Below are positions 7,768 to 34,501 of a DNA stretch of 64,000 nt, one piece after another (the first letter of the stretch is position 1; each line of letters starts with the position of its first letter). The notes beneath the pieces were generated by a model. The model was not told the origin of the DNA and did not search any database. It worked only from the letters and a program-made list of their open reading frames with translations. Both the position numbers and the translations under genes were made by a program. Location of the stretch: the NCBI GenBank assembly GCA_051880315.1, contig JBJENR010000033.1:3312-67311 (forward strand), read 5' to 3'. This stretch comes from Acetatifactor sp. (GTDB lineage: Bacteria > Bacillota > Clostridia > Lachnospirales > Lachnospiraceae).

Positions 7768-8508
7768 TCAGCCGCTGATTGACAGTATTTCCATGGGATC
7801 AATATAGACACCGTCCTTCATCACCTGATACCCCAGTCTGCTGCTGTTTTCGTTTATGAGGAAAAGCGTGGTTCCCTGCATTACCGTCTCGCCCTGCTTC
7901 ACCTTAACCTCACCTGCATTTCGGTATACCGTCACATAACCATTCCCATGATCCACCCAGACGTTATGTCCGTAATCAACATCATCATTGACCGCCGTAA
8001 CCGTGCCCTTTGCAGCTGAGATTACCATAGCTCCGTCTGTGGCTGCAAACACACACATAGGTTCTCCTTCCGACACTTCCTCCATTGTAGCGGAACCCGT
8101 CAGCGGAAATTCCGTGGGAATCATCTGTTTCTCTAATTGTATCGCTAGTTCATTTTCGTTCAGCGTCTTTTTATTGACGGTATCGCTCAGCACCTGAATT
8201 GTTTCATCCAGCTCTGCCACTTTTGCTTCAAGAGCTGCCTTCTCCTGTTCCAATACAGTTTTTTCCTGTTTCAGTTTCTCCAGTTCCTGGGCATGCATGG
8301 CGGCTTGACTCCTTCTGTCTCCGAGCACACTCCCCTCGTAATAGAGCAAACCAATCAGAATACCCACTGCAACGCAGGCCACCAACACCAGCACCTGCAC
8401 CAGCCAGGAACGAATCCGAATCTGCTTTACTCCGGCATCCACGGCATCCGATGTCATGATAAAAATATGGTTCTTTTGACGTTTATGACGTTGCCGTACC
8501 ATAGGCAA
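7768..8508 (-). CDS. Membrane-anchored coiled-coil M23/LytM-fold protein, catalytic motifs absent
   Basis: TM helix, coiled coil, then SAAKGTVTAV...YGHNVWVDHGNGYVTVY...VKQGETVMQG...YIDPMEIL; no HxxxD or HxH. Confidence 0.8.
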   Translation of the reverse strand: MPMVRQRHKRQKNHIFIMTSDAVDAGVKQIRIRSWLVQVLVLVACVAVGILIGLLYYEGSVLGDRRSQAAMHAQELEKLKQEKTVLEQEKAALEAKVAELDETIQVLSDTVNKKTLNENELAIQLEKQMIPTEFPLTGSATMEEVSEGEPMCVFAATDGAMVISAAKGTVTAVNDDVDYGHNVWVDHGNGYVTVYRNAGEVKVKQGETVMQGTTLFLINENSSRLGYQVMKDGVYIDPMEILSISG

Positions 8509-8651
8509 AAACTACCTCCGATAAATTAACAATATGATTAATATTATCATAGCTTTTGGGCAACATCAACGCGAGCTTAACATTTTTGTAACATTTTACC
8601 AAAAATGGGAATTAAATTATGTTGATTTACCATAAGAAATATTCTGAAAAA

Positions 8652-9431
8652 TCAACCTTCCTGACAGATTTTTTGAACTTTTTCCCACTCCAACGCACCT
8701 CCAAAAAGATTGAGAGCGCTTCCCACAGTGACATTCAGCCGATTATTTCCCAGCTTTTTTAACAGGTAAAGATCCTCATAGCTGTGTACTCCTCCGGCAT
8801 AGGTTACCGCCTTCTTCCCCCAGTTTCCCAACATCCCTGTGAGCTCCTCCTCAATCCCTTCAGCCTTTCCCTCGACGTCCACCGCATGCACGAGAAACTC
8901 ATCACAATATTCAGCCAGTTTGTCCAGCAAAGCAGCACTGACGGTTTCCTCTGTCATCCTCTGCCATCTGTCCGTCACAACCTTGTACCCCTCTGATGTT
9001 TTCCTGCAGCTTAAATCCAGCACAAGTCTCTCTCTGCCCACTGCTTTCACCAGTTCTTTCAGTCTGTCATAATATACCTTTCCGTCCCGAAACACATAAG
9101 ACGTGACAATCACATGGGAAGCGCCCGCATCCAGAAACTCCCCGGCATTTTTCGGGGTAATACCGCCGCCTATCTGCATTCCCCCCGGATATGCCCTCAA
9201 AGCGCCGAAAGCCTGTTGCTTCGTCTGTTCATAAAAAGGACTGTCCTTGGAATTCAGCAGGATAATATGTCCTCCCCTGATTCCCGCATTTTTATAAAGT
9301 TCTGCATAAAAGGAAGCATCCCGCTCCGTCACAAAATTTTCTTCGGCACTGTCCCCGCTGTCGCGAAGACTTCCACCCACAATCTGCTTTACCTTTCCGT
9401 TATGAATATCAATACAAGGCCTGAATTCCAT
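8652..9431 (-). CDS. hisA: ProFAR isomerase, eukaryote/HIS6-like type
   Basis: MEFRPCIDIHNGKVKQIVGG, MQIGGGI, LVLDLSCRK, FLVHAVDVEG, TYAGG, VTVGSAL; start refined to ATG 9431. Confidence 0.88.
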   Translation of the reverse strand: MEFRPCIDIHNGKVKQIVGGSLRDSGDSAEENFVTERDASFYAELYKNAGIRGGHIILLNSKDSPFYEQTKQQAFGALRAYPGGMQIGGGITPKNAGEFLDAGASHVIVTSYVFRDGKVYYDRLKELVKAVGRERLVLDLSCRKTSEGYKVVTDRWQRMTEETVSAALLDKLAEYCDEFLVHAVDVEGKAEGIEEELTGMLGNWGKKAVTYAGGVHSYEDLYLLKKLGNNRLNVTVGSALNLFGGALEWEKVQKICQEG

Positions 9432-24979: not shown

Positions 24980-25537
24980 TCACTTTTTTTGTATAAAGGA
25001 TTTTCTCTCTGCAAGGTAGTCTGTCCGCAAAAGGTGGATTGCCAGTTCCTCCGATGATGCCGCAAATGCTAAAATACATACCACCCAGCTATATACAACA
25101 ATGGCCGAGCCCAAAAGAACATAGGGCAACAGAAATACTGCCGCACCGGTCAACTTGTTCAGCCATGTATGCAGTGACGCGAAGCGATGAAATTTCACTG
25201 CCGCTGTTACATACGCCCCAAGACGCACAAGGACGATTCCCGATACGGCATACCAGATTTTTCCCGGAAGAATATGATATAAAACAGGAAAAAGGCGGAT
25301 TAGCAAAACGCTGTAAAACAACAAGTCAGCGATACTGTCCAGCCTTGCACCAAACTCACTTGCTCTTCCGGTTTTTCTTGCAAGCCATCCATCTAAAACA
25401 TCTGTCAAACCGGCGAAAGAATAAATAACAAGAAACCAGATGGATTTCAAAGGAAGGAAAAACAGAAAAAGAGAGGCTGTCATACGCATGACGGTAACTG
25501 TATCCGCCATGTTCCAATTATGTCGTTTACTTTCCAT
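24980..25537 (-). CDS. CDP-alcohol phosphatidyltransferase family protein
   Basis: LTDVLDGWLARKTGRASEFGARLDSIAD matches the DGxxARxxxxxSxxGxxLD motif. Confidence 0.9.
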   Translation of the reverse strand: MESKRHNWNMADTVTVMRMTASLFLFFLPLKSIWFLVIYSFAGLTDVLDGWLARKTGRASEFGARLDSIADLLFYSVLLIRLFPVLYHILPGKIWYAVSGIVLVRLGAYVTAAVKFHRFASLHTWLNKLTGAAVFLLPYVLLGSAIVVYSWVVCILAFAASSEELAIHLLRTDYLAERKSFIQKK

Positions 25538-25713
25538 TATCCCTTCTCCAGCATAGAGATGCCTGCGCAGGCAGGTCCGATTCCGGGCATGACAACCGCA
25601 GCCTGAGTTTCTAACTTACCCGGGCAGGACAGAACTACAACTGCACGCCCCATTGCTAATGTCAACGACTTCATAACTGTTGACACTATTTCCTTAATTG
25701 ATTTCTTTTCCAT
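25537..25713 (-). CDS. Small two-helix membrane protein, possibly decaying
   Basis: GAAGGAG RBS before ATG 25713; MEKKSIKEIVSTVMKSLTLAMGRAVVVLSCPGKLETQAAVVMPGIGPACAGISMLEKG. The ORF-track start at 25911 lacks support. Confidence 0.5.
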   Translation of the reverse strand: MEKKSIKEIVSTVMKSLTLAMGRAVVVLSCPGKLETQAAVVMPGIGPACAGISMLEKG

Positions 25714-26095
25714 GTATCTTTCTCCTTCAAGTAAAAAATGCAAATCTTTTTCCATATCATACAATATGTAGACATTAGCCACCATCTTCACAATAAGGTT
25801 CAAATTCCTATTTATAATCATATTTCCGTCAATAGACCAGCTTACTGAAAGTACAGATATTCTATCCGATACCATTTTTACAAGATGTAAACGTGCTTTT
25901 CCATAAGTCACTTAAAAATATCTGCGTACATTCCCTTCAGATACTCCAGATAATGCTTGGTAATTTCTATAATATAGAAAGTACTTACAGTCCGACATAT
26001 AATATTCTTTCTTTTGTTGGCATGCATCTTCTATCCCTAAAATTCTAACAACCATTTTCTGTATTATAGCTAACGACCGTTTTCTTTGTCAAGAT

Positions 26096-26158
26096 AAACA
26101 TTTGACTCTTTGACCTCTTTGACTTAAACGACATTAACATTTGACCTAAACATTTGAC
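26096..26158 (+). repeat. Cluster of five TTTGAC direct repeats, three as (A/T)AACATTTGAC
   Basis: TTTGAC at 26101, 26109, 26118, 26140 and 26153. Confidence 0.8.
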
Positions 26159-26245
26159 TGGGGATAATGTGGATAGATTTTTGTCTTGCTAATTAGCAGA
26201 TACTGTGGTTAAGTATATATACATACTATTTTTAGGAGGTATAAA

Positions 26246-27022
26246 ATGATTTATGAACAAGCAAAAAATGAATACAATGCTATTACTAACCGAATCCAAT
26301 GTATTCAAAACGAACTAAAGAATCTGCCTTCCGGCAAACTTGTCTGTTGTTCTCACAAAAAATACACAAAATGGTATCAAAGCAACTCGCATGAAAAAAC
26401 TTACATTCCAAAATCCAATCGTTCCCTGGCAGAGCAGCTTGCAAAAAAGAAATACTTATCTTTACTGTTACAGGATTTGGAAAAAGAAAAAACTGCACTC
26501 TCCTTTTATCTTCGACATCATAGCACCATGAAACAATCAGAACAACTTCTGACCTCTTCCTCGGAATATCAAAAATTGCTTGCTCCCTGCTTTACTCCGT
26601 TATCACAAGAATTAGCCACTTGGATGTCCTCACCTTATGAGCATAATCTATCTCATCCGGAAACGCTTATTCATAAGGGTGTGTCAAACTATTTCCTGCG
26701 TTCCAAATCCGAAGTACTGATTGATATGCTTCTTCGCACACATCATATTCCGTTTCGATATGAATGTGCTCTTGAATTGAATGGCTCTGTCTTATTTCCC
26801 GACTTCACAATCAGGCATCCTCAAACAGGGGGGTTCATTTATTGGGAGCATTTTGGATTAATGGACAATGTCTCATATATCGATAATGCAGTTTCAAAAA
26901 TACGTCTTTACGCCACAAACGGCATCATTCCAGGAATTCAACTCATCACCACCTTTGAAACTAAGAATAATCCTCTAGACATTGAAACAATTGAAAAGAC
27001 CATTGAATTTTACTTAAAATAG
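26246..27022 (+). CDS. Stand-alone PD-(D/E)xK-like (DUF559/Vsr-like) nuclease-domain protein with N-terminal coiled coil
   Basis: AGGAGG RBS; C-terminal RSKSE...IPFRYE...PDFTI...YWEHFGLMD...Y...KIRLY...GI...LITTFE; AT-rich. Nuclease activity is inferred from motif pattern only. Confidence 0.7.
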   Translation: MIYEQAKNEYNAITNRIQCIQNELKNLPSGKLVCCSHKKYTKWYQSNSHEKTYIPKSNRSLAEQLAKKKYLSLLLQDLEKEKTALSFYLRHHSTMKQSEQLLTSSSEYQKLLAPCFTPLSQELATWMSSPYEHNLSHPETLIHKGVSNYFLRSKSEVLIDMLLRTHHIPFRYECALELNGSVLFPDFTIRHPQTGGFIYWEHFGLMDNVSYIDNAVSKIRLYATNGIIPGIQLITTFETKNNPLDIETIEKTIEFYLK

Positions 27023-27062
27023 CACTAATAACATATTATATATTTAGGAATTTTATTCGCTT

Positions 27063-27420
27063 GGTCTATGTGATTTTTATATATCGACTGATTCCATATT
27101 ATAACAATTCCTTTTGGTTTTAGGTCTATGGTTACTTTTTACATGGTTGGATTCCATTTTTTCACTTTTTTCTTTGGTTTTTAGGTCTATGTGCTTTTTT
27201 TGCATGGTTAGAATCCATTTTTTCACTTTTTCCTTTGGTTTTTAGGTCTATGGTTACTTTTTGTATTGTTGGATTCTATTTTATCACTTCTTCCTTTGGT
27301 TTTTAGGTCTATGTGCTTTTTTACCTTTACAGGATTCCATTTTTTATTATTTTGTACCTTTTGCTTCCAGTTTATAGGTCTATACTGTTTTTTTGTATCT
27401 TTAGATTCCATTTTGTGTGA
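27063..27420 (+). repeat. Degenerate tandem array of ~61-bp units (5 full + 1 partial)
   Basis: GGTCTAT at 27063, 27123, 27184, 27245, 27306 and 27377 (periods 60, 61, 61, 61, 71); second motif GATTCCAT (variants GAATCCAT, GATTCTAT) about 28-30 nt into each unit; TTTGGTTTT(T)A closes units 1-4. Confidence 0.92.
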
Positions 27421-27508
27421 TTTTCAATCATTCATCCTCTTCTATCCATATTTTTGCACGGATGCCACAGCCGTATTTTAACCAACTGACACTTCGTGTT
27501 TGGCTGAA

Positions 27509-27686
27509 ATGCGGCATTCGCATTCCGCTTCGCTTCTTGCTCATGTATGGCTTTCGCCTCTCCCTCCGGTCCATGCGGCATTCGCATTCCGCTTCGCTTC
27601 TTGCTCATGTATGGCTTTCGCCTCTCCCTCCGGTCCATGCGGCATTCGCATTCCGCTTCGCTTCTTGCTCATGTATGGCTTTCGCC
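27509..27686. repeat. Exact 64-bp tandem repeat, 2.8 copies, REP-like palindromic unit
   Basis: ATGCGGCATTCGCATTCCGCTTCGCTTCTTGCTCATGTATGGCTTTCGCCTCTCCCTCCGGTCC at 27509 and 27573 (identical); first 50 nt again at 27637. Confidence 0.95.
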
Positions 27687-27692
27687 ATATAT

Positions 27693-27753
27693 TGGCGTAT
27701 CAGAAAAGACACCTCCGTAAGTAAACTTACTCGGTGTCTTTTCCGATACGCCA
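27693..27753. repeat. Long inverted repeat (21-bp arms, one mismatch) with nested hairpin
   Basis: TGGCGTATCAGAAAAGACACC / GGTGTCTTTTCCGATACGCCA enclosing GTAAG-TAAA-CTTAC; 10 nt after the spoIVB stop. Confidence 0.9.
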
Positions 27754-27763
27754 CCGCATGGTC

Positions 27764-29188
27764 TCAATGCTCCAGCATATTCTCAATAAAAATCCCATAC
27801 CCTCTTGTGGAATCCTGCACCAGGACGTGGGTTACAGCGCCGATAAACTTTCCGTTCTGGAGGATAGGACTGCCGGACATCCCTTGAACGATTCCACCGG
27901 TGAGTTCCAGCAGCTTCTTATCTGTAACCTTAAGTTCAATCCCTCTGTTAATATTATCGTGGCTTAAGTGGATATCCGTTATCTCCACATCATAATACGC
28001 AGGCTCTTCTTCTATGGTACAGAGAATCTGAGCAGGACCGAGCTTAATTTCCTGTTTTAGCCCGATGGGGACCGGGTCCTGCATTTCCATAGCCAGAGCT
28101 CTGGTATTACAGTTTCCGAAAATCCCCCTGCTGCTGTTTTCTGTGATATTTCCCAATATCCGGTCATCCGAATATACTATCATCCCTGTCATTTCTCCGG
28201 GATTTCCGCGGGTACCCTTTTTAATATCAATGATACTGGTTTCATAAAGAGTGCCTCCATTCATGTGCATGAGTGTGCTGGTGTCAACATCATTGATTCC
28301 GTGTCCCAACGCACCGAATTCTCCCCCGCTGTCGATATAGGTCATGGTTCCCACACCCTGGGCATTATCTCTGACCCATACCCCAATCTTATACTTACCG
28401 CTTTTGTCCCTCTGGGGCTTGATTGAGACATCCATGATTTCTCCGTCTCTTTCCAGTGTCAGAATCACGGCCTTACCTCCGCTTTTCTCCACCGCTGTAA
28501 TCAATTCTTCTTTTTTATTGATTTCCTCCCCATTGATTTTTCTGATATAATCGCCGGACTTCACTATGTTCTTTCCCGGAGAATAAGTGATTCCTCCCAC
28601 TCCCTGGAATTCACCCGCTCCTATCACAAGTATTCCGTCAGTCTCCACATAAATTCCGATAGGCATTCCCACAGGCACCAGTTCCTCATCGTCAATGGCA
28701 CGAATTCCCACCTGTTTGATGGGCAGGATTCCAAAGAGCTTCACCTGCATCCGGCAGCCTGTCTCAGCTTCCATCTTCATGGTCACTGTACGGCTTAAAT
28801 CAATCTGAACTGCTCCCTTTGGTATATTGCTGCCACCCTGGTCACTGACACTGATAATTTCTGCCTTTGCAGGCACTCCAAGGAAAAAAGACTGCTCCTG
28901 TCCTGCCCTGATATTGATTATAGAGGGTATGTTACTGTCCACATGATAATAAAACAGACCTGACATAGCAAAGACGGCAATTGTCAGCGCACTTATAAAA
29001 CATGCCCTGAATATCTTTCGACGCCTGACCCTGCTTTTCCAGTTCTGTAATATAACAACTGCATTCTCACCCGCTCTTTTTTTTATTTTTTCATTATTCT
29101 TCCCATTATTAAGCATCACAAACACACTCCCAACCTGCCGGTATACAGACCTGCCTTTTCCTCCGTGCGGTCTGAATTTAAAAAACAA
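27764..29188 (-). CDS. spoIVB: SpoIVB peptidase (S55); true start probably well downstream of 29188
   Basis: PDZ region; GVWVRDNAQGVGTMTY, FGALGHGI, TGGIVQGMSGSPILQNGKFIGAVTHV. The first ~50 codons look like a non-coding extension. Confidence 0.95.
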   Translation of the reverse strand: MFFKFRPHGGKGRSVYRQVGSVFVMLNNGKNNEKIKKRAGENAVVILQNWKSRVRRRKIFRACFISALTIAVFAMSGLFYYHVDSNIPSIINIRAGQEQSFFLGVPAKAEIISVSDQGGSNIPKGAVQIDLSRTVTMKMEAETGCRMQVKLFGILPIKQVGIRAIDDEELVPVGMPIGIYVETDGILVIGAGEFQGVGGITYSPGKNIVKSGDYIRKINGEEINKKEELITAVEKSGGKAVILTLERDGEIMDVSIKPQRDKSGKYKIGVWVRDNAQGVGTMTYIDSGGEFGALGHGINDVDTSTLMHMNGGTLYETSIIDIKKGTRGNPGEMTGMIVYSDDRILGNITENSSRGIFGNCNTRALAMEMQDPVPIGLKQEIKLGPAQILCTIEEEPAYYDVEITDIHLSHDNINRGIELKVTDKKLLELTGGIVQGMSGSPILQNGKFIGAVTHVLVQDSTRGYGIFIENMLEH

Positions 29189-29277: not shown

Positions 29278-32200
29278 TCATTTTTTTCTTTTCAGCCTGA
29301 GAATCTGAAACACAGCATTGTCATTTCCCCTGGGTGCACACCGGTCAGACTGTACAAAAAATTTTTCCGCATTCTCCTCATCCCCCTCATGCAGGGCCAT
29401 GAGTCCCCTGCACTCCCAATATTCCGTACAATCTGTAAGAGTACAATGACTGCACCAGGAGCTCTTTTCAATTTCTTCCAGATACTGTCCTGCCTTATCA
29501 TAGTCATCCGTATAGTAGGAGCACAAGAACAACTGATACAGATTATGTCTGGTGCCAATCATTGAATTTGCGTGAAGCTCTTCAGCCGTCAGACCAAGTC
29601 CGTGACATTCGCTATACTGCTCCTCCAGACACTGGATGAACATTTTATGGTAATTATCTGCTGCTTCCCAATCACCCATCCGCTGACAGCATGCCATCAG
29701 TTTTAGCAATATTTCCTTGTAATCACTTTTGTCAGCATCCTCACCGAGAGACTGCAGCATTTCCAGTGCCTTCTTTAAGTATTTCAGCCCCTTTTCTTCC
29801 TCCAGCAGACAGTAAAGCCATGTGTAAGCCATCTCCCGATATGCGCCAAATTTACCTTCCGCATTCCTCTCCAGCTTACTACCCTCCGGGGCTTCCAACA
29901 GTGCCTCTGCTTCCAGAAGCCGCTTTTTCACTTCCTCCGAAGGTGACATAAGCCGATAAAGGTGCATAAGATCCTCAATGCGTTCCCCCTCGTTTCTCCA
30001 GGATTCACAACAATACTTTTTTAAGTCCGTACTGCCGTAGCGCTCCTCAATGACTGCCAAAGCCTTGTCATACTGTTTCATTTGAATATATATTTTTTTG
30101 ATAAAGTCGAGATTCTTCCCTCTCTGCCTGTCGGAGACACATTTCGGAAGCCATTTTCTAAACCAGGCAATTCCCGTTTCATATTGTTTTGTCTCGATAA
30201 AATAATCGGCCATCTGACTGTAGGAAAAGGCATAATCAGTAGTGTCCTCCTTCAACAGAGCTTCAATTCCGTTTTCATAACATTCTACCGCCTCATCCCT
30301 CCTGTGCATCAGCTCCAGCACCTGACCTTTATGCCCCCAGTTGCGGGCTCGTCTGTCTGTCTCCAGTGCCCGATTGATTTCCTCCAATGCCAGTTCAAAT
30401 TCCCTGCCGCGTCTGTGTAAATCGGAAAGTTGCCAATAATCGGTGGCATCAGCCTCGCATCTCTCCAGCTGCAGCTTCATATACTCCAATGCTTTCTCAT
30501 AATAAATCTTCTGGCCTGTTCTGTTGAATTTCTGACGATACAGCCATGCCGCGCGCCATGCAAAATCCTTCTCCTCCGGGCCCGTTTCAACCGCCTTTTC
30601 GTAATATGTAATGGCATCGTCCCATTTTTTAAAGTTCTCAAAGCACCTTGCCATATAATAATACATAAAGCAGAAGGTCAGTCCCATTTCTTCACATACC
30701 TTCAGATGCTCCAGCGCTCCTTTGGAATCCTTATGATATAAAAACAGGGCTCTTCCAAGGGAGTATCTGGCATCTACGGTGTCCTTCAATTCCACGGAGC
30801 GCTGGGAATATCTTGCAATTTTCTTTTGATTTCCAAGCTCCTTCGCTCCTTCCTCCCCCTGGATATATGCCAGCTCCAGATAGGCCTTCGCCAGCAGTTC
30901 CTCCGATGCCTTTTCCTTTGTCAGCTCAGAAATGGTTTTTCTGGCATACATGTCTGCCTCTCTGGCTGTCTTCCGATCCACAATCAGCTTCCTCAGAAGC
31001 TGAATTCGCTGTACCTTCAGGGTGTGGCTGCTCAAGCCCGCTTCCTCTGCCTGATGTAATATATCGGAGGCATCATGACACTGTCCATAGTCCAGAAATA
31101 CTCTTGCTGCGCGCTCGTAGATTTCCGGATGCCCGTTGTAAATCTCCTTTGCGCTATAGAAGAAATCAATAACCTCCTGGGGCTTATGTAATTCCTCATA
31201 CGCCTCCTGGGCATAAAAGTGTGCCCAATAAAATCCCTGGTCAATTTCCCTCATCCGCAGACATAGTTCTGTTATATATTCGTATTCCTTCAGCTCTCTT
31301 GCAAGCATGAGACGGTTCATCAGCAGATTAATATCCTTCGGTTTCAACGTAATTCCCAGTTCAAAGGCTTCCACTGATTTGGCCATAAGGGAGGCTTTCT
31401 CCTCCTCTGCCGCCTGCTCTGCGAGCATTCGATACGCCCTGCCCTCCATCTCCCGGGCCTGGGCCATACTTTCCACCCGTTCCTCCGGGGTTAAGGAATC
31501 CTCCTCGTTTGTCTCGGAGAGAGTAGGTTCTTCTTCCAGATTTCTGCGCCAGCCCTCGCAATGCCCAAGGGCCTCTTCCGGACGGTTTGCCTGCAACAAC
31601 AGTACCGCCAGGGCACGATGATTTCTAAAGCCGTCTCCCTGCAGCATACGATGTGCTTCCATGAATTCCAGACCTTCCGCACAACGATCCGTCTGAATAT
31701 AGCACCAGGCCAGTTTCTGAGTCTGCTTTTCCGTCAATTCCTCCGGTATCCCGCTCCACTGCTCAATCAGTCTTGTATTGATTCCAGTCAACAGCTGGAC
31801 TACCTCCTCTGTCTCAAAGAGGTCATGGGCATCCAGACATTGTTTTCTGGCATCCTCCAGTTTACCTTCCTCTTCGTACAATTCTGCCAGATTCAGGGAG
31901 ACATAATAACGAGAACCGTTAGGAAGCTTGTCTTCCTTCAGCAGTCTTTCAAACATGGGAAGGGTTTCCCGGTGGCGTCCCAGCTCTTTTAGCATTCTGG
32001 CACATCCCAGATAAACCTGCACATCATTTTCATAGTTCACAAGAAGCCTTTGAATCAAAGGCTCTGCGTCCTGCCTTCTGTCTGTTCTCATCAGGTATCT
32101 TGCCTTTTCCAGCTGCATCCACGGATGCTCCATACCCAATGACTCCAGATACTGAATTTTCTGTTCTGCTGCCCCCAGAGCAGCCTCTCTCCCATCCTCC

Positions 32201-32799
32201 CGGGAAGCCTCCTCCATCAGACGGCGCAGTTCATCATAACCGTTCAAAAAACCATCATAATCCAAATCGGAATTATCCATTGGCAGGAACTCGTCATAAG
32301 GGAAATCAAAGGTTTCCTCCTCTACAAGCTTTCCCTCAATATATTCCACAAAACCTCCCGGCAGGTTTTCCATAAACTCCGCCTTGTGTTCCCCGATAAA
32401 AAAATAAGAATCCAGCAAACGCCATATTTTTACCGGCAAACGCCAATGGCCTGCAAGCCAGGAAAAGAGACTCCACTTGGCAGTTTCCTCAAGCTCCAGT
32501 GCATCAAACAGAGGATCCTCCAACAGCTTCTTCCAGGCATCCGGATTAATTCTGTCAGCCATCCGGGAATAAACCCTCTGAAACCGGTCCATTAACAAAT
32601 CTACCGGTCCTTTCTCCGTCTCCTGCTCTTCCTCCGTTATTCTGGCAAAATCCAATGCCTGCTCATAGGCATTTCTTAAGCGTATAAATCCTTCCTGGTC
32701 ATCCTCCGGGTTGACCTGCGCAAGTCTGTCCCGATAAGCCCTGCGAATCTTTTGCTCATCCTTTGTCTGCTCAATACCCAGAACTACAAAGCATTCCAT
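29278..32799 (-). CDS. Large J-domain-like/TPR-repeat protein
   Basis: GGAGG RBS and ATG 32799; VLGIEQTKDEQKIRRAYRDRLAQVNPEDDQEGFIRLRNAYE is J-like; many TPR-like helical repeats; C-terminal CSHCTLTDC. Confidence 0.85.
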   Translation of the reverse strand: MECFVVLGIEQTKDEQKIRRAYRDRLAQVNPEDDQEGFIRLRNAYEQALDFARITEEEQETEKGPVDLLMDRFQRVYSRMADRINPDAWKKLLEDPLFDALELEETAKWSLFSWLAGHWRLPVKIWRLLDSYFFIGEHKAEFMENLPGGFVEYIEGKLVEEETFDFPYDEFLPMDNSDLDYDGFLNGYDELRRLMEEASREDGREAALGAAEQKIQYLESLGMEHPWMQLEKARYLMRTDRRQDAEPLIQRLLVNYENDVQVYLGCARMLKELGRHRETLPMFERLLKEDKLPNGSRYYVSLNLAELYEEEGKLEDARKQCLDAHDLFETEEVVQLLTGINTRLIEQWSGIPEELTEKQTQKLAWCYIQTDRCAEGLEFMEAHRMLQGDGFRNHRALAVLLLQANRPEEALGHCEGWRRNLEEEPTLSETNEEDSLTPEERVESMAQAREMEGRAYRMLAEQAAEEEKASLMAKSVEAFELGITLKPKDINLLMNRLMLARELKEYEYITELCLRMREIDQGFYWAHFYAQEAYEELHKPQEVIDFFYSAKEIYNGHPEIYERAARVFLDYGQCHDASDILHQAEEAGLSSHTLKVQRIQLLRKLIVDRKTAREADMYARKTISELTKEKASEELLAKAYLELAYIQGEEGAKELGNQKKIARYSQRSVELKDTVDARYSLGRALFLYHKDSKGALEHLKVCEEMGLTFCFMYYYMARCFENFKKWDDAITYYEKAVETGPEEKDFAWRAAWLYRQKFNRTGQKIYYEKALEYMKLQLERCEADATDYWQLSDLHRRGREFELALEEINRALETDRRARNWGHKGQVLELMHRRDEAVECYENGIEALLKEDTTDYAFSYSQMADYFIETKQYETGIAWFRKWLPKCVSDRQRGKNLDFIKKIYIQMKQYDKALAVIEERYGSTDLKKYCCESWRNEGERIEDLMHLYRLMSPSEEVKKRLLEAEALLEAPEGSKLERNAEGKFGAYREMAYTWLYCLLEEEKGLKYLKKALEMLQSLGEDADKSDYKEILLKLMACCQRMGDWEAADNYHKMFIQCLEEQYSECHGLGLTAEELHANSMIGTRHNLYQLFLCSYYTDDYDKAGQYLEEIEKSSWCSHCTLTDCTEYWECRGLMALHEGDEENAEKFFVQSDRCAPRGNDNAVFQILRLKRKK

Positions 32800-34501
32800 A
32801 TCCTTCCTCCGTGTGCCACTCCATCGCCTTATGCTGTAACGCCTGTCCCCGCATCTCTCGGGCATTGGAAAGCGCTGCCTCCGTCAAGGCATCACTGCCA
32901 AGCAGCCGTGCCAATTCACCCAGGCTTTCTTCTTCATTCATCATTCTGATATCCGTGATGGTATTATCCCCTGTGCTGCTTTTCTCAATGCAAAAATGCC
33001 TGTCAGCCATAGCGGCAATCTGCGGTAAATGAGTGATACAGATGACCTGATGTGCGTGCGCCAGCGTATCCAGCTGTTCAGATACCTTCCATGCCGTCCT
33101 GCCGCTGATGCCGGCGTCAATCTCGTCAAATATCAGGGTGTCAATATCGTCCCTGCCTGCCAGAACCGTCTTGATGGCCAGCATCACTCTGGAAAGTTCA
33201 CCTCCGCTGGCAACCTGTCCCAGTGATTTTAACGGTTCTCCGGGATTTGTGGAAATCATAAACTCCACATCATCATATCCCCCGGCGGTTATGGTCTGCT
33301 CCGGACGAACAGCAATCTCAAAATCCACCGTCAGAAAATTCAGGTTCACCAGCGCTTCCTTCAATTGTCTTTCCAGCCGGGAAGCATTTTTCTGCCGGAT
33401 TGCCGAGAGTTTCTCACAGGCTGCTCTCAGTCTGCCCTCCGCCGCAGCAAGCTCCTCCTTCAGCTGCTGCATATAAGCATCATAGTCTGCCAGCTTTTCC
33501 AAAAGCTGCTTCCTGCCTTCCTTATAAGCAATCACCTTCTCCAAAGTATTGCCATATTTTTCCTTCAGTCTGTTCAGGGTATTCAGGCGCTCTTCCGCCT
33601 CCACAAACTCCCTTTCATCAAACTCACAGTCCCCCATATATCCGGCAACGTCACGATTATAATCGGCCAGCAGATTATCAATCTCCGCCAGCTGCTCCTC
33701 CAGCTCCTCCAACCGGGGATCATAGGCTGCAACACTGCGGATTGCCCGCAGGGCACGGCTCAGGGCGCTGCCTGCACCCTCTCCCTCATTGCCTGTGAGC
33801 TGATAGCTTTCGGACAGGCTTTCCGTGATTTTTCGGCTGTTGGTCATAAGACGATACCGCTGTTCCAGTTTCTCATCTTCCCCCGGAGTAAGCCCGGCAT
33901 CCTCTATTTCACGGAATTCAAACTCTGCAAGAGACTGTTCCCGCAGTCTGGACTCCTCGTCAAAAGTCTCCTCATCCAGTTTTTTTCTGATTTCCCTACA
34001 CGCCAGAAATTCCTGTTCCACCTTCCCTGCGATTGCGTCAAATTCCTCTCCGCAGTAAGAGTCCAGAATCTCCATATGCTTTTTCTTATTCAGCAATGAC
34101 TGATGTTCATGCTGACCATGAATATCGATCAGCACCTCTGCCAGTTCCTTTACCTGCCTGGCAGTAACCGTCTCTCCGTTAATCTTACAGACGTTCTTTC
34201 CCACCTGCATCTTACGGCTTAAGATTACCGTGTCGTCCTCCTGGGGCTCTAAATCCATCTCCAGAAGCTTCTCCCGCACCTTGGGATTATCTCCGGTAAA
34301 CACCAGCTCCACCAGCGCATTTTCAGCGCCCTTGCGCAGCATATCCTTCTCGAATTTACCGCCCAGCGCCAGGCTGATACTGCCGATCAGCAGAGATTTA
34401 CCGGCTCCGGTTTCACCGGTAAGGATATTCAGTCCCTTACCAAACTCAACCTCCGTCTCCTCCATCAACGCCAGATTTTTCACATGTAGACTTTGCAGCA
34501 T
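32771..34501 (-). CDS. recN: DNA repair protein RecN
   Basis: MLQSLHVKNLAL, LTGETGAGKS, IHGQHEHQ, ASGGELSR, FDEIDAGISG, CITHLPQIA; start refined to 34501. Confidence 0.97.
   Translation of the reverse strand: MLQSLHVKNLALMEETEVEFGKGLNILTGETGAGKSLLIGSISLALGGKFEKDMLRKGAENALVELVFTGDNPKVREKLLEMDLEPQEDDTVILSRKMQVGKNVCKINGETVTARQVKELAEVLIDIHGQHEHQSLLNKKKHMEILDSYCGEEFDAIAGKVEQEFLACREIRKKLDEETFDEESRLREQSLAEFEFREIEDAGLTPGEDEKLEQRYRLMTNSRKITESLSESYQLTGNEGEGAGSALSRALRAIRSVAAYDPRLEELEEQLAEIDNLLADYNRDVAGYMGDCEFDEREFVEAEERLNTLNRLKEKYGNTLEKVIAYKEGRKQLLEKLADYDAYMQQLKEELAAAEGRLRAACEKLSAIRQKNASRLERQLKEALVNLNFLTVDFEIAVRPEQTITAGGYDDVEFMISTNPGEPLKSLGQVASGGELSRVMLAIKTVLAGRDDIDTLIFDEIDAGISGRTAWKVSEQLDTLAHAHQVICITHLPQIAAMADRHFCIEKSSTGDNTITDIRMMNEEESLGELARLLGSDALTEAALSNAREMRGQALQHKAMEWHTEEGYGMLCSSGY

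What the first reader, a model, noticed from the sequence alone, without database searches (positions are those of the whole stretch)
27063..27420. 61-bp two-motif array with alternating unit types and helically phased T-tracts
Seen: each unit has two conserved motifs about half a period apart (GGTCTAT; GATTCCAT), separated by variable T-rich segments. Units alternate GGTCTATG-TG(A/C)TTTTT (units 1, 3, 5) and GGTCTATG-GTTACTTTTT (units 2, 4), giving a higher-order ~122-bp period. In unit 2 the T5-6 tracts centre near positions 16, 37, 46 and 58 and then 77, all about the same phase of a ~10.2-bp helix, and 61 bp is about six turns. The period is not a multiple of 3, so this is not a protein repeat. 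Established: phased A/T-tracts curve DNA. Inference: a curved, iterated protein-binding scaffold (iteron/centromere-like), or a dual-repeat RNA array with degenerate variable segments.
Basis: partly seen in the sequence, partly recalled or inferred. Interest (0 to 1): 0.68.

Follow-up and report, generated by a model that had tools for sequence, protein, structure and literature searches.

The report
Nuclease gene's own repeat array
The 61-bp array is real and is most likely a row of recognition sites for the small nuclease gene just upstream of it. This gene-plus-repeat pairing recurs across gut Lachnospiraceae and seems undescribed, and it resembles known bacterial "selfish repeat plus enzyme" systems.

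Summary
Six units at 27063-27411 each carry GGTCTAT and GAWTCYAT exactly 27 nt apart, with a 60-61 bp period (one unit is 71 bp). Shuffled sequence gives no such match. The T-tracts are helically phased at 10.2 bp. The 122-bp alternation is real but weak.

The array is not an iteron, a centromere or a guide-RNA array. It lies 40 bp downstream of a 258-aa gene (26246-27022). That protein has an N-terminal coiled-coil/beta domain and a C-terminal restriction-endonuclease-like domain, with no Pfam family and more than 1,700 homologues.

Most family members examined, including the three other paralogues in this genome, have their own short cluster of two-box units beside the gene, and related proteins tend to share box sequences. 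In the window's clade the boxes and the 61-62 bp period are conserved across species while the filler is not.

In relatives the units form about 275-bp palindromic clusters. These also occur without the gene, for example as an insertion between mutS and mutL, and they fold as DNA hairpins. The window's one-direction tandem form is a derived, non-hairpin variant.

Best reading: a cognate DNA-site array of a REPIN-RAYT-like or Ssn-like nuclease-repeat partnership. Binding and cleavage are inferred, not shown.

The parts
26246..27022 (+). 258-aa stand-alone nuclease-family gene. It has an N-terminal helix / 3-strand beta / long-helix domain and a C-terminal restriction-endonuclease-like (PD-(D/E)xK) domain. 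Invariant motifs are RSKSE (152-156), PDF (185-187) and EH.G..D (201-207).
   Evidence: ORF. No Pfam, NCBIfam or PHROG hit. At least 1784 homologues. Alignment A1. AF2 pLDDT 88.8. Foldseek hits, all weak (best E 0.011), to Bax1, DrdV, XisH, BamHI, R2 EN and Hjc. PADLOC PDC-S68 C-terminus, E 2.8e-27. 34% identity to the C-terminus of a 1251-aa SF1 helicase.
27063..27411 (+). Tandem array of six two-box units (A-box GGTCTAT, 20-nt A/T-tract filler, B-box GAWTCYAT, then a T-rich linker). All units point the same way as the gene.
27063..27097 (+). Unit 1 core (A-box to B-box). It is the most diverged unit at the gene-proximal edge.
27123..27157 (+). Unit 2 core.
27184..27218 (+). Unit 3 core (B-box variant GAATCCAT).
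27245..27279 (+). Unit 4 core (B-box variant GATTCTAT).
27306..27340 (+). Unit 5 core, followed by a 71-bp period.
27377..27411 (+). Unit 6 core, the last unit.
27693..27753 (.). 21-bp-arm inverted repeat with an A-run and a T-run on its two sides. It is probably a bidirectional terminator shared by spoIVB (-) and the nuclease-gene/array transcript (+). No terminator was found between the gene and the array.
   Evidence: I1; no terminator at 27022-27690.

Best explanation
The array is a tandemly amplified, one-direction version of the cognate DNA repeat unit of the adjacent 258-aa nuclease-family gene.

Shown:
- Members of this protein family are stand-alone genes. Most of those examined carry a short cluster of two-box units of about 35 bp next to them.
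- Related proteins tend to share box sequences.
- In the window's clade the unit is GGTCTAT(R) / A/T tract / (R)GAWTCC.
- In relatives the units form palindromic clusters of about 275 bp with two forward and two reverse units (F-F-R-R). These clusters end exactly at inverted A-boxes, also occur without the gene, and in one case are an insertion.

Inferred:
- The protein binds the two boxes 27 bp apart, probably as an oligomer held together by its N-terminal coiled coil.
- The 61-62 bp period (six helical turns) and the phased T-tracts put all sites on one face of a bent duplex, so that several protein units bind cooperatively.
- In the palindromic form this recognition lets the nuclease mobilise or maintain the clusters, as in REPIN-RAYT or Ssn-SRM pairs.
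- In the derived tandem form here, which cannot form a hairpin and has no inverted ends, the array most likely only binds the protein (titrating or autoregulating it). It grows and shrinks by unequal recombination.
For: (1) Family-wide linkage:
- No other gene recurs near the family gene in 80 loci.
- 63% of intergenic gaps next to the gene hold an 8-mer repeated 3 or more times, against 26% of other gaps.
- Explicit two-box clusters were seen in the loci read by eye.
- The three other paralogues in this genome (C92, C93, C26) each have a different array.

(2) Coupling of box to protein:
- Sharing of repeated 7-mers rises from 0.15 to 0.52 with protein identity.
- Clade-mates mostly share a box.

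(3) Constraint on the boxes:
- Across WINDOW, L024 and G010 the boxes are 0.80 identical and the inner filler 0.39.
- The period is 61-62 bp in five arrays.
- The same unit occurs in at least 10 species of the clade.

(4) Same site in several species:
- The gene plus units lie next to spoIVB in the window, G010, L021, L024 and the species carrying homologue P0002.

(5) Genomic distribution:
- Strict two-box matches exceed background only in G000 (7 against 0 for the control), G010 (8 against 0) and G016 (23 against 1), out of 101 genomes of the genus. All three encode a protein of this clade.

(6) Mobility of the palindromic form:
- The G016 clusters align only between CGGTCTAT and ATAGACCG.
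- One fills a 350-bp mutS-mutL gap that is 13-69 bp in 13 other genomes.
- Its single-strand DNA fold has z = -6.36.

(7) Protein:
- It has a nuclease fold with invariant acidic motifs.
- The domain is shared with helicase-nuclease defence candidates.

(8) Against an RNA role:
- RNA fold z is -0.07 and -0.59, and relatives have units in both orientations.
Against: - No binding, cleavage or expression data exist.
- The repeat-enrichment test is crude (63% against 26%), and some family loci show no clear cluster.
- Box-protein coupling could partly reflect inheritance of whole loci together.
- The active site is not the classical (D/E)xK; it reads E-H, so the catalytic chemistry is unproven.
- PD-(D/E)xK nucleases are not known to carry out transposition alone, so the mobilisation step has no mechanistic precedent.
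- No target-site duplication was seen.
- Copy numbers are low: two loci in this genome and about 13 clusters in G016, a genome bin with 10% contamination.
- T-tract phasing is strong here, moderate in L024, and weak or absent in L023, G010 and the C56 array, so curvature may not be essential.
- The window's boxes are not inverted copies of each other, unlike the half-sites of most other family members.
Confidence: 0.55

Rival explanations
1. RNA-level element. The array is transcribed as the 3' part of the nuclease mRNA, or on its own, and its units act as RNA: for example a type III antitoxin-like repeat that neutralises the nuclease, or a guide array.
For: No terminator lies between the gene and the array. 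The next one is the shared hairpin at 27693-27753, so read-through is likely. The three other paralogues in this genome have arrays upstream in the same orientation as the gene, as in ToxIN loci. Several orthogonal gene-repeat pairs per genome is typical of toxin-antitoxin systems.
Against: No RNA structure beyond shuffles on either strand. No Rfam hit. In relatives the same units occur in both orientations within one cluster and on either side of the gene. The filler is not spacer-like. The protein has a DNA restriction-endonuclease-like fold and not a ToxN or Nop fold. TIGR criteria are not met.
Confidence: 0.1
2. A functionless satellite. The repeat arose by slippage or unequal crossing-over in an AT-rich intergenic region, and its position next to the gene is incidental.
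For: Units within an array are more alike than units between species (0.89-0.92 in L024 and L023, against 0.57-0.68 between species). Unit number differs: 6, 5-6, 4 or more, and 3. This is the pattern expected from recombinational turnover. The neighbouring 64-bp repeat shows that the region amplifies sequence.
Against: The two boxes, their 27-28 bp spacing and the 61-62 bp period survive across species while the filler falls to 39% identity. The same boxes occur in non-tandem palindromic clusters in other species and at a second locus in this genome. The association with the gene family is general.
Confidence: 0.12
3. A host regulatory or architectural element of the spoIVB region. It would be curved DNA bound by a host factor, acting as an insulator or terminator zone between the convergent genes.
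For: The gene plus units sit next to spoIVB in five species. The T-tracts are phased.
Against: The same boxes occur away from spoIVB: C56 in this genome and about 13 sites in G016, including mutS-mutL. Most genomes of the genus have spoIVB without the array. Other paralogues carry different boxes, which does not fit one host factor.
Confidence: 0.08
4. An iteron or centromere of an integrated plasmid-like replicon.
For: Tandem sites in helical register with bent DNA resemble sopC, parC and iteron arrays (my own knowledge of those systems).
Against: No Rep, ParA, ParB or relaxase gene lies at 18-36 kb of the window. The neighbours are an ABC transporter, phosphoketolase, CDP-alcohol phosphatidyltransferase, spoIVB, recN and argR. 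The protein family is essentially absent from plasmid records; only the nuclease domain is found there, fused to helicases. The locus is inherited vertically.
Confidence: 0.03

Closest known systems
REPIN-RAYT systems (REP doublets and their REP-associated tyrosine transposases; Pseudomonas, Enterobacteria; PMC3337134)
   Same: A stand-alone enzyme gene is flanked by its own short repeats. Each gene variant has its own repeat type. Paralogues in one genome are very different from each other (about 30% identity here). The locus is inherited vertically at a fixed site. Non-coding palindromic clusters also lie elsewhere in intergenic DNA and fold as hairpins (G016 cluster, z -6.36). The filler between repeats is not conserved.
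   Different: The enzyme has a restriction-endonuclease-like fold with a coiled-coil N-terminus, not an HUH/Y1 transposase. The units are two boxes 27 bp apart, not a compact REP hairpin. There are a few to about a dozen clusters per genome, not hundreds. The window's array is all-direct and cannot form a hairpin.
Ssn nucleases and their NTS/SRM repeats (GIY-YIG; Neisseria and many phyla; PMC11893778)
   Same: A small site-specific nuclease gene that is usually flanked by copies of its own recognition repeat (71% of homologues in that study). The repeats are also dispersed elsewhere in the genome.
   Different: A different nuclease superfamily (GIY-YIG against PD-(D/E)xK). SRM is a single hairpin cut as single-stranded DNA. 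The substrate form here is unknown, and the window's units have no hairpin.
Tandem centromere or operator arrays such as F sopC (43-bp repeats, each with an inverted repeat) and parC (my own knowledge)
   Same: Direct tandem repeats of a protein-binding unit, phased with the DNA helix, next to the gene of the binding protein.
   Different: There is no partition ATPase or ParB-like protein and no replicon context. The partner protein is a nuclease-fold protein.
TIGR-Tas dual-repeat guide arrays (PMC12045711)
   Same: Two alternating short conserved motifs in a tandem array next to a nuclease-related gene, upstream or downstream of it.
   Different: TIGR units are about 36 nt, with 8-12-nt repeats and 9-12-nt variable spacers, and sit next to a Nop-domain protein. 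Here the unit is 61 bp, the gaps are 20 and 26 nt of related T-rich filler, and there is no Nop domain.
PADLOC defence candidate PDC-S68 (about 1200-aa SF1 helicase with a C-terminal nuclease domain)
   Same: The C-terminal nuclease domain is homologous, with the same LRSKSE, PDFTI and YWEH.G motifs (E 2.8e-27; 34% identity).
   Different: The protein here lacks the helicase and instead has a 140-aa coiled-coil/beta N-terminus. No repeat array was examined or is known for PDC-S68.

Membership tests
REPIN-RAYT | The enzyme is an IS200-like HUH/Y1 transposase. | tested here: not met
   No Pfam, NCBIfam or PHROG hit. The AF2 model and Foldseek give a restriction-endonuclease-like fold.
REPIN-RAYT | The repeats are inverted doublets that form a hairpin. 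| tested here: not met
   The window array is all-direct, with single-strand DNA fold z -0.08. This feature is met only by the relatives' F-F-R-R clusters (z -6.36).
REPIN-RAYT | The enzyme gene is flanked by its own repeat type, and each variant has its own type. | tested here: met
REPIN-RAYT | The repeats are dispersed in many copies through the genome. | tested here: inconclusive
   This genome has two loci, C33 and C56. G016 has about 13 clusters. That is far below REPIN numbers.
Ssn / SRM | GIY-YIG nuclease. | tested here: not met
   No GIY-YIG hit in Pfam. The fold is PD-(D/E)xK-like.
Ssn / SRM | Site-specific cleavage of single-stranded DNA at the repeat. | not testable with these tools
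   This needs a nuclease assay.
TIGR-Tas | Two alternating 8-12-nt repeats with 9-12-nt spacers (a unit of about 36 nt). | tested here: not met
   Here the boxes are 7-8 nt, the gaps 20 and about 26 nt, and the unit 61 bp. Definition from PMC12045711.
TIGR-Tas | The spacers differ between units. | tested here: not met
   The filler segments are related to each other: units 2-4 are 82-89% identical overall and all are T-rich.
TIGR-Tas | An adjacent Nop-domain Tas protein. | tested here: not met
   No Nop hit among eight neighbouring proteins.
Plasmid iterons / partition centromere | An adjacent Rep initiator or ParA/ParB (ParM/ParR) genes on a replicon. | tested here: not met
   ORFs at 18-36 kb of the window are housekeeping or sporulation genes. 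The family is not found in plasmid records except as a helicase fusion domain.
Type III toxin-antitoxin (ToxIN-like) | An RNA repeat array upstream of a ToxN-fold endoribonuclease, processed into structured units. | tested here: not met
   The array is downstream of the gene. No RNA structure was found. The protein fold is not ToxN-like. Processing could not be tested.
MITE | Terminal inverted repeats and a target-site duplication. | tested here: not met
   The window array has no inverted ends. In G016 the clusters do end in inverted A-boxes, but no duplication was seen.
PD-(D/E)xK nuclease superfamily (for the partner protein) | An alpha-beta-beta-beta-alpha-beta core with conserved acidic residues. 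| tested here: inconclusive
   The fold hits are consistent but weak (best E 0.011). E156, D186 and E201 are invariant, but the usual lysine position reads H/F. Homology to the PDC-S68 nuclease domain is strong.

The most novel reading that the evidence does not exclude
A Lachnospiraceae-wide family of 258-aa proteins, each a coiled coil plus a PD-(D/E)xK nuclease domain, together with co-evolving two-box repeat clusters, forms a previously undescribed nuclease-repeat replicator. It would be a third enzyme class doing what RAYTs (HUH) and Ssn (GIY-YIG) do. In it, palindromic clusters of about 275 bp move into intergenic DNA, and one-direction tandem arrays such as this one are domesticated binding platforms for the nuclease.
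Probability: 0.4. Interest if true: 0.75.

Novelty: new variant of a known kind. Interest (0 to 1): 0.62.

Why it matters
If the pairing is real, it assigns a function to a large unannotated protein family of gut Lachnospiraceae: more than 1,700 clusters at 90% identity, several copies per genome, often mislabelled 'ATPase'. It would also be a further case, after RAYT-REPIN and Ssn-SRM, of a nuclease maintaining its own repeat population, here with a restriction-endonuclease-like enzyme. Each paralogue appears to have its own 35-bp two-box site. The family could therefore be a natural set of orthogonal sequence-specific DNA binders or cutters. The repeat clusters also break short-read assemblies (many family contigs end in them), which matters for genomes assembled from metagenomes.

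Tried and rejected
- Rfam scan of the whole window: no hit.
- RNA and single-strand DNA folding of the array on both strands: no better than shuffles.
- Minus-strand mini-ORF (MESNHVKSNHRPKNQRKK in units 2 and 3): rejected. Unit 4 has no ATG, unit 1 stops early, and the L023 and L024 arrays do not keep it.
- Promoter or terminator role: no excess of consensus sites in the array.
- TIGR-Tas: rejected on unit geometry, spacers and protein.
- Iteron or centromere: rejected on gene content.
- Conserved neighbour genes: none in 80 loci.
- An empty site downstream of spoIVB: could not be defined, because that side is not syntenic in six other genomes of the genus.
- Strain-level variation in this species: two metagenome scans found no other copy of this array. 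In the species carrying homologue P0002, six samples differ only by a T7/T8 run and a few substitutions, with the boxes unchanged.
- Dispersed copies of the C92 and C93 paralogue boxes: the extra regex hits are chance matches inside genes.
- Sequence search of solved structures: nothing significant.
- Literature searches for this family or for PDC-S68: nothing.
- Quantitative curvature prediction: not run, because I did not trust wedge-model parameters recalled from memory. Only the parameter-free Fourier test was done.

Full report
**Observation.** The array exists as described. Six units start at 27063, 27123, 27184, 27245, 27306 and 27377. Each holds GGTCTAT and, exactly 27 nt further on, GAWTCYAT. 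This two-box pattern matches six times in the window and never in 100 dinucleotide-preserving shuffles. TRF reports periods of 61 and 122 bp.

Whole-unit identities show only a weak 122-bp order: 2v4 0.89, 2v3 0.87, 3v5 0.68. T-runs centre at about 16, 37, 46 and 58 of each unit. The Fourier power of AAA/TTT peaks at 10.2 bp, the sixth harmonic of 61, and no shuffle out of 2000 reaches it. Since the units are copies of one another, this is really one unit with four in-phase tracts, so the evidence is modest.

The array has 28-29% GC and is strongly T-rich on the + strand. It matches no Rfam family. Neither strand folds better than shuffles as RNA (z -0.07 and -0.59), nor does the + strand as single-stranded DNA (z -0.08).

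**Context.** The window is chromosomal Lachnospiraceae DNA; the closest relatives are labelled Acetatifactor. The array lies between a 258-aa ORF (26246-27022, +) and the convergent spoIVB gene (27764-29188, -). recN, argR and an NAD kinase lie beyond spoIVB. A phosphoketolase and an ABC transporter lie on the other side. No replication or partition gene is present.

A 21-bp-arm hairpin at 27693-27753 looks like a terminator shared by both transcription directions. No terminator separates the ORF from the array.

**The neighbouring protein.** It has no Pfam, NCBIfam or PHROG family, yet at least 1784 homologues were found, a few of them mislabelled 'ATPase'.

The AlphaFold model is confident (pLDDT 88.8). 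It shows an N-terminal helix, a three-strand sheet, a long helix, and a C-terminal alpha/beta domain. Foldseek matches the C-terminal domain weakly but consistently to restriction-endonuclease-like nucleases (Bax1, DrdV, XisH, BamHI, the R2 endonuclease, Hjc). It matches the N-terminal part to prefoldin-type coiled coils. RSKSE, PDF and EH.G..D are invariant in alignment A1.

The nuclease domain (residues 135-254) matches the C-terminus of the PADLOC defence candidate PDC-S68 at E 2.8e-27. It is 34% identical to the end of a 1251-aa SF1 helicase (AAA_30/UvrD_C_2) encoded beside DISARM drmA on a Bacillus cereus plasmid. It is therefore a genuine nuclease module, here attached to a possible oligomerisation domain.

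**The gene-repeat link.** The family is multi-copy and patchy. This genome has four copies at about 30% mutual identity, and relatives have up to six. In 80 loci from public genomes no other gene recurs beside it.

What does recur is a short repeat cluster, upstream, downstream or both. Units consist of two boxes about 20 nt apart and repeat every 41-83 bp, either in direct order or as forward-forward-reverse-reverse. The three other paralogues in this genome each have their own array: CTACGGTT...AACCGTAG x6, TCTACCCT...AGGGTAGA x3, and a third type.

A crude test finds a thrice-repeated 8-mer in 63% of gaps next to the gene, against 26% of other gaps in the same loci. Box sequences follow the protein tree: clade-mates mostly share a box. 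The chance that two loci share a repeated 7-mer rises from 0.15 to 0.52 with protein identity.

**The window's clade.** In at least ten species the unit is GGTCTAT(R), an A/T run, (R)GAWTCC, then TTTT. The gene with its units sits beside spoIVB in the window, G010, L021, L024 and the species of the 74%-identical homologue P0002. This copy is therefore an old, vertically inherited resident.

The common architecture is one forward unit plus a palindromic pair, or a full F-F-R-R cluster on one or both sides of the gene (L019, L020, L031, the P0002 species). One-direction tandem arrays occur in the window (6 units), L024 (5-6), L023 (4 or more, at a contig end) and G010 (3).

Their period is 61-62 bp throughout. 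Units are more alike within an array (0.70, 0.89, 0.92, 0.61) than between species (0.57-0.68). Between species the boxes stay 0.80 identical while the inner filler drops to 0.39. That is the signature of recombinational turnover under constraint on the boxes and their spacing.

T-tract phasing is strong here, moderate in L024 and weak in the others. I therefore treat curvature as a local feature and not a requirement.

**Clusters without a gene, and mobility.** A strict two-box pattern exceeds its control only in G000 (7 against 0), G010 (8 against 0) and G016 (23 against 1) among 101 genomes of the genus. These three genomes all encode a protein of this clade.

This genome has a second, gene-less array of three 62-bp units at C56:9025-9120, beside a tRNA gene and an integrase fragment. 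It is conserved in G010.

In G016, clusters lie in unrelated intergenic regions. Four of them align only between the inverted A-boxes CGGTCTAT...ATAGACCG, about 275 bp, with unrelated flanks. One occupies a 350-bp mutS-mutL gap that is 13-69 bp in 13 other genomes of the genus. It folds as a long DNA hairpin (z -6.36). The palindromic form thus behaves like a small non-autonomous mobile element. I saw no target-site duplication. G016 is a bin with 10% contamination, so this step needs confirmation.

**Interpretation.** The best-supported reading is that the array is the cognate DNA-site cluster of the adjacent nuclease-family protein, in a derived tandem form.

The linkage, the box-protein coupling, the conservation of boxes and period, and the insertion are shown. 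The rest is inferred: that the protein itself binds the boxes, that the coiled coil spaces or oligomerises DNA-binding domains over the 27-bp (about 92 Å) box distance, that six-turn spacing and bent T-tracts favour cooperative one-face binding, and that the nuclease mobilises the palindromic clusters.

Because the window's array has no inverted ends and no hairpin, I think it no longer moves. It most likely acts as a binding platform that titrates or autoregulates the nuclease, or it is simply tolerated.

**Comparison with known systems.** The behaviour matches REPIN-RAYT pairs point by point, except for the enzyme class, the unit design and the copy number (PMC3337134). It also parallels the Ssn-SRM pairs described in 2025 (PMC11893778). 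It is a member of neither, since the enzyme is neither HUH nor GIY-YIG.

None of these holds here. Iteron and centromere labels fail on gene content.

Literature searches found no description of this family or of PDC-S68. Notes from this scan report other nuclease-plus-hairpin pairs with different enzymes. I used them only as the lead to the Ssn paper.

**Limits.** No other strain of this species was found. No biochemistry exists. The family-wide statistics are rough. Confidence in the core claim is 0.55.

Noticed in passing
window 27509-27700: A GC-rich 64-bp unit is repeated 2.8 times, with the first two copies 100% identical (a recent amplification or an assembly effect). It lies between the array and the spoIVB terminator. 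Related single or double copies lie at the same place in G010, L021 and L024. A 38-nt part (ATGCGGCATTCGCATTCCGCTTCGC...) is dispersed in another genome of the genus (9 hits in G008).
   Followed up: partly
window 26090-26165: Five TTTGAC(C/T) motifs lie upstream of the nuclease gene. They overlap a perfect TTGACA-18-TATAAT promoter on the minus strand (26092 to 26063) and a 10/12 promoter on the plus strand (26141-26168). This is a divergent promoter region that might also be an operator.
   Followed up: no
own genome C56:9025-9120 (outside the window): A gene-less three-unit array (period 62) carries the same GGTCTAT / GATTCC boxes. It lies between a GNAT-like gene and a tyrosine-integrase fragment plus a tRNA gene. 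It is conserved in G010 (C11:20608-20764).
   Followed up: partly
own genome C92:2440-2860, C93:6860-7100, C26:7380-7620 and 8370-8660: The three other paralogues of the 258-aa protein each have a different tandem array next to them (periods of about 53 and 64 bp for C92 and C93). In the C26 locus a run of N interrupts the array.
   Followed up: partly
window 25537-25911 (-): A 124-aa ORF with a GTG start and no family hit lies between the CDP-alcohol phosphatidyltransferase gene and the nuclease gene. The region between phosphoketolase and the nuclease gene differs entirely between this genome and G010.
   Followed up: no
window 29278-32865 (-): A 1195-aa TPR-rich protein with a weak N-terminal DnaJ-like match lies between recN and spoIVB. 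In the P0002 species recN directly follows spoIVB.
   Followed up: no
L142 (B. cereus plasmid NZ_AP022916.1, 23833-27588): A 1251-aa SF1 helicase ends in the same nuclease domain. It lies between a site-specific integrase gene and DISARM drmA, which is a defence-island context for the domain.
   Followed up: partly
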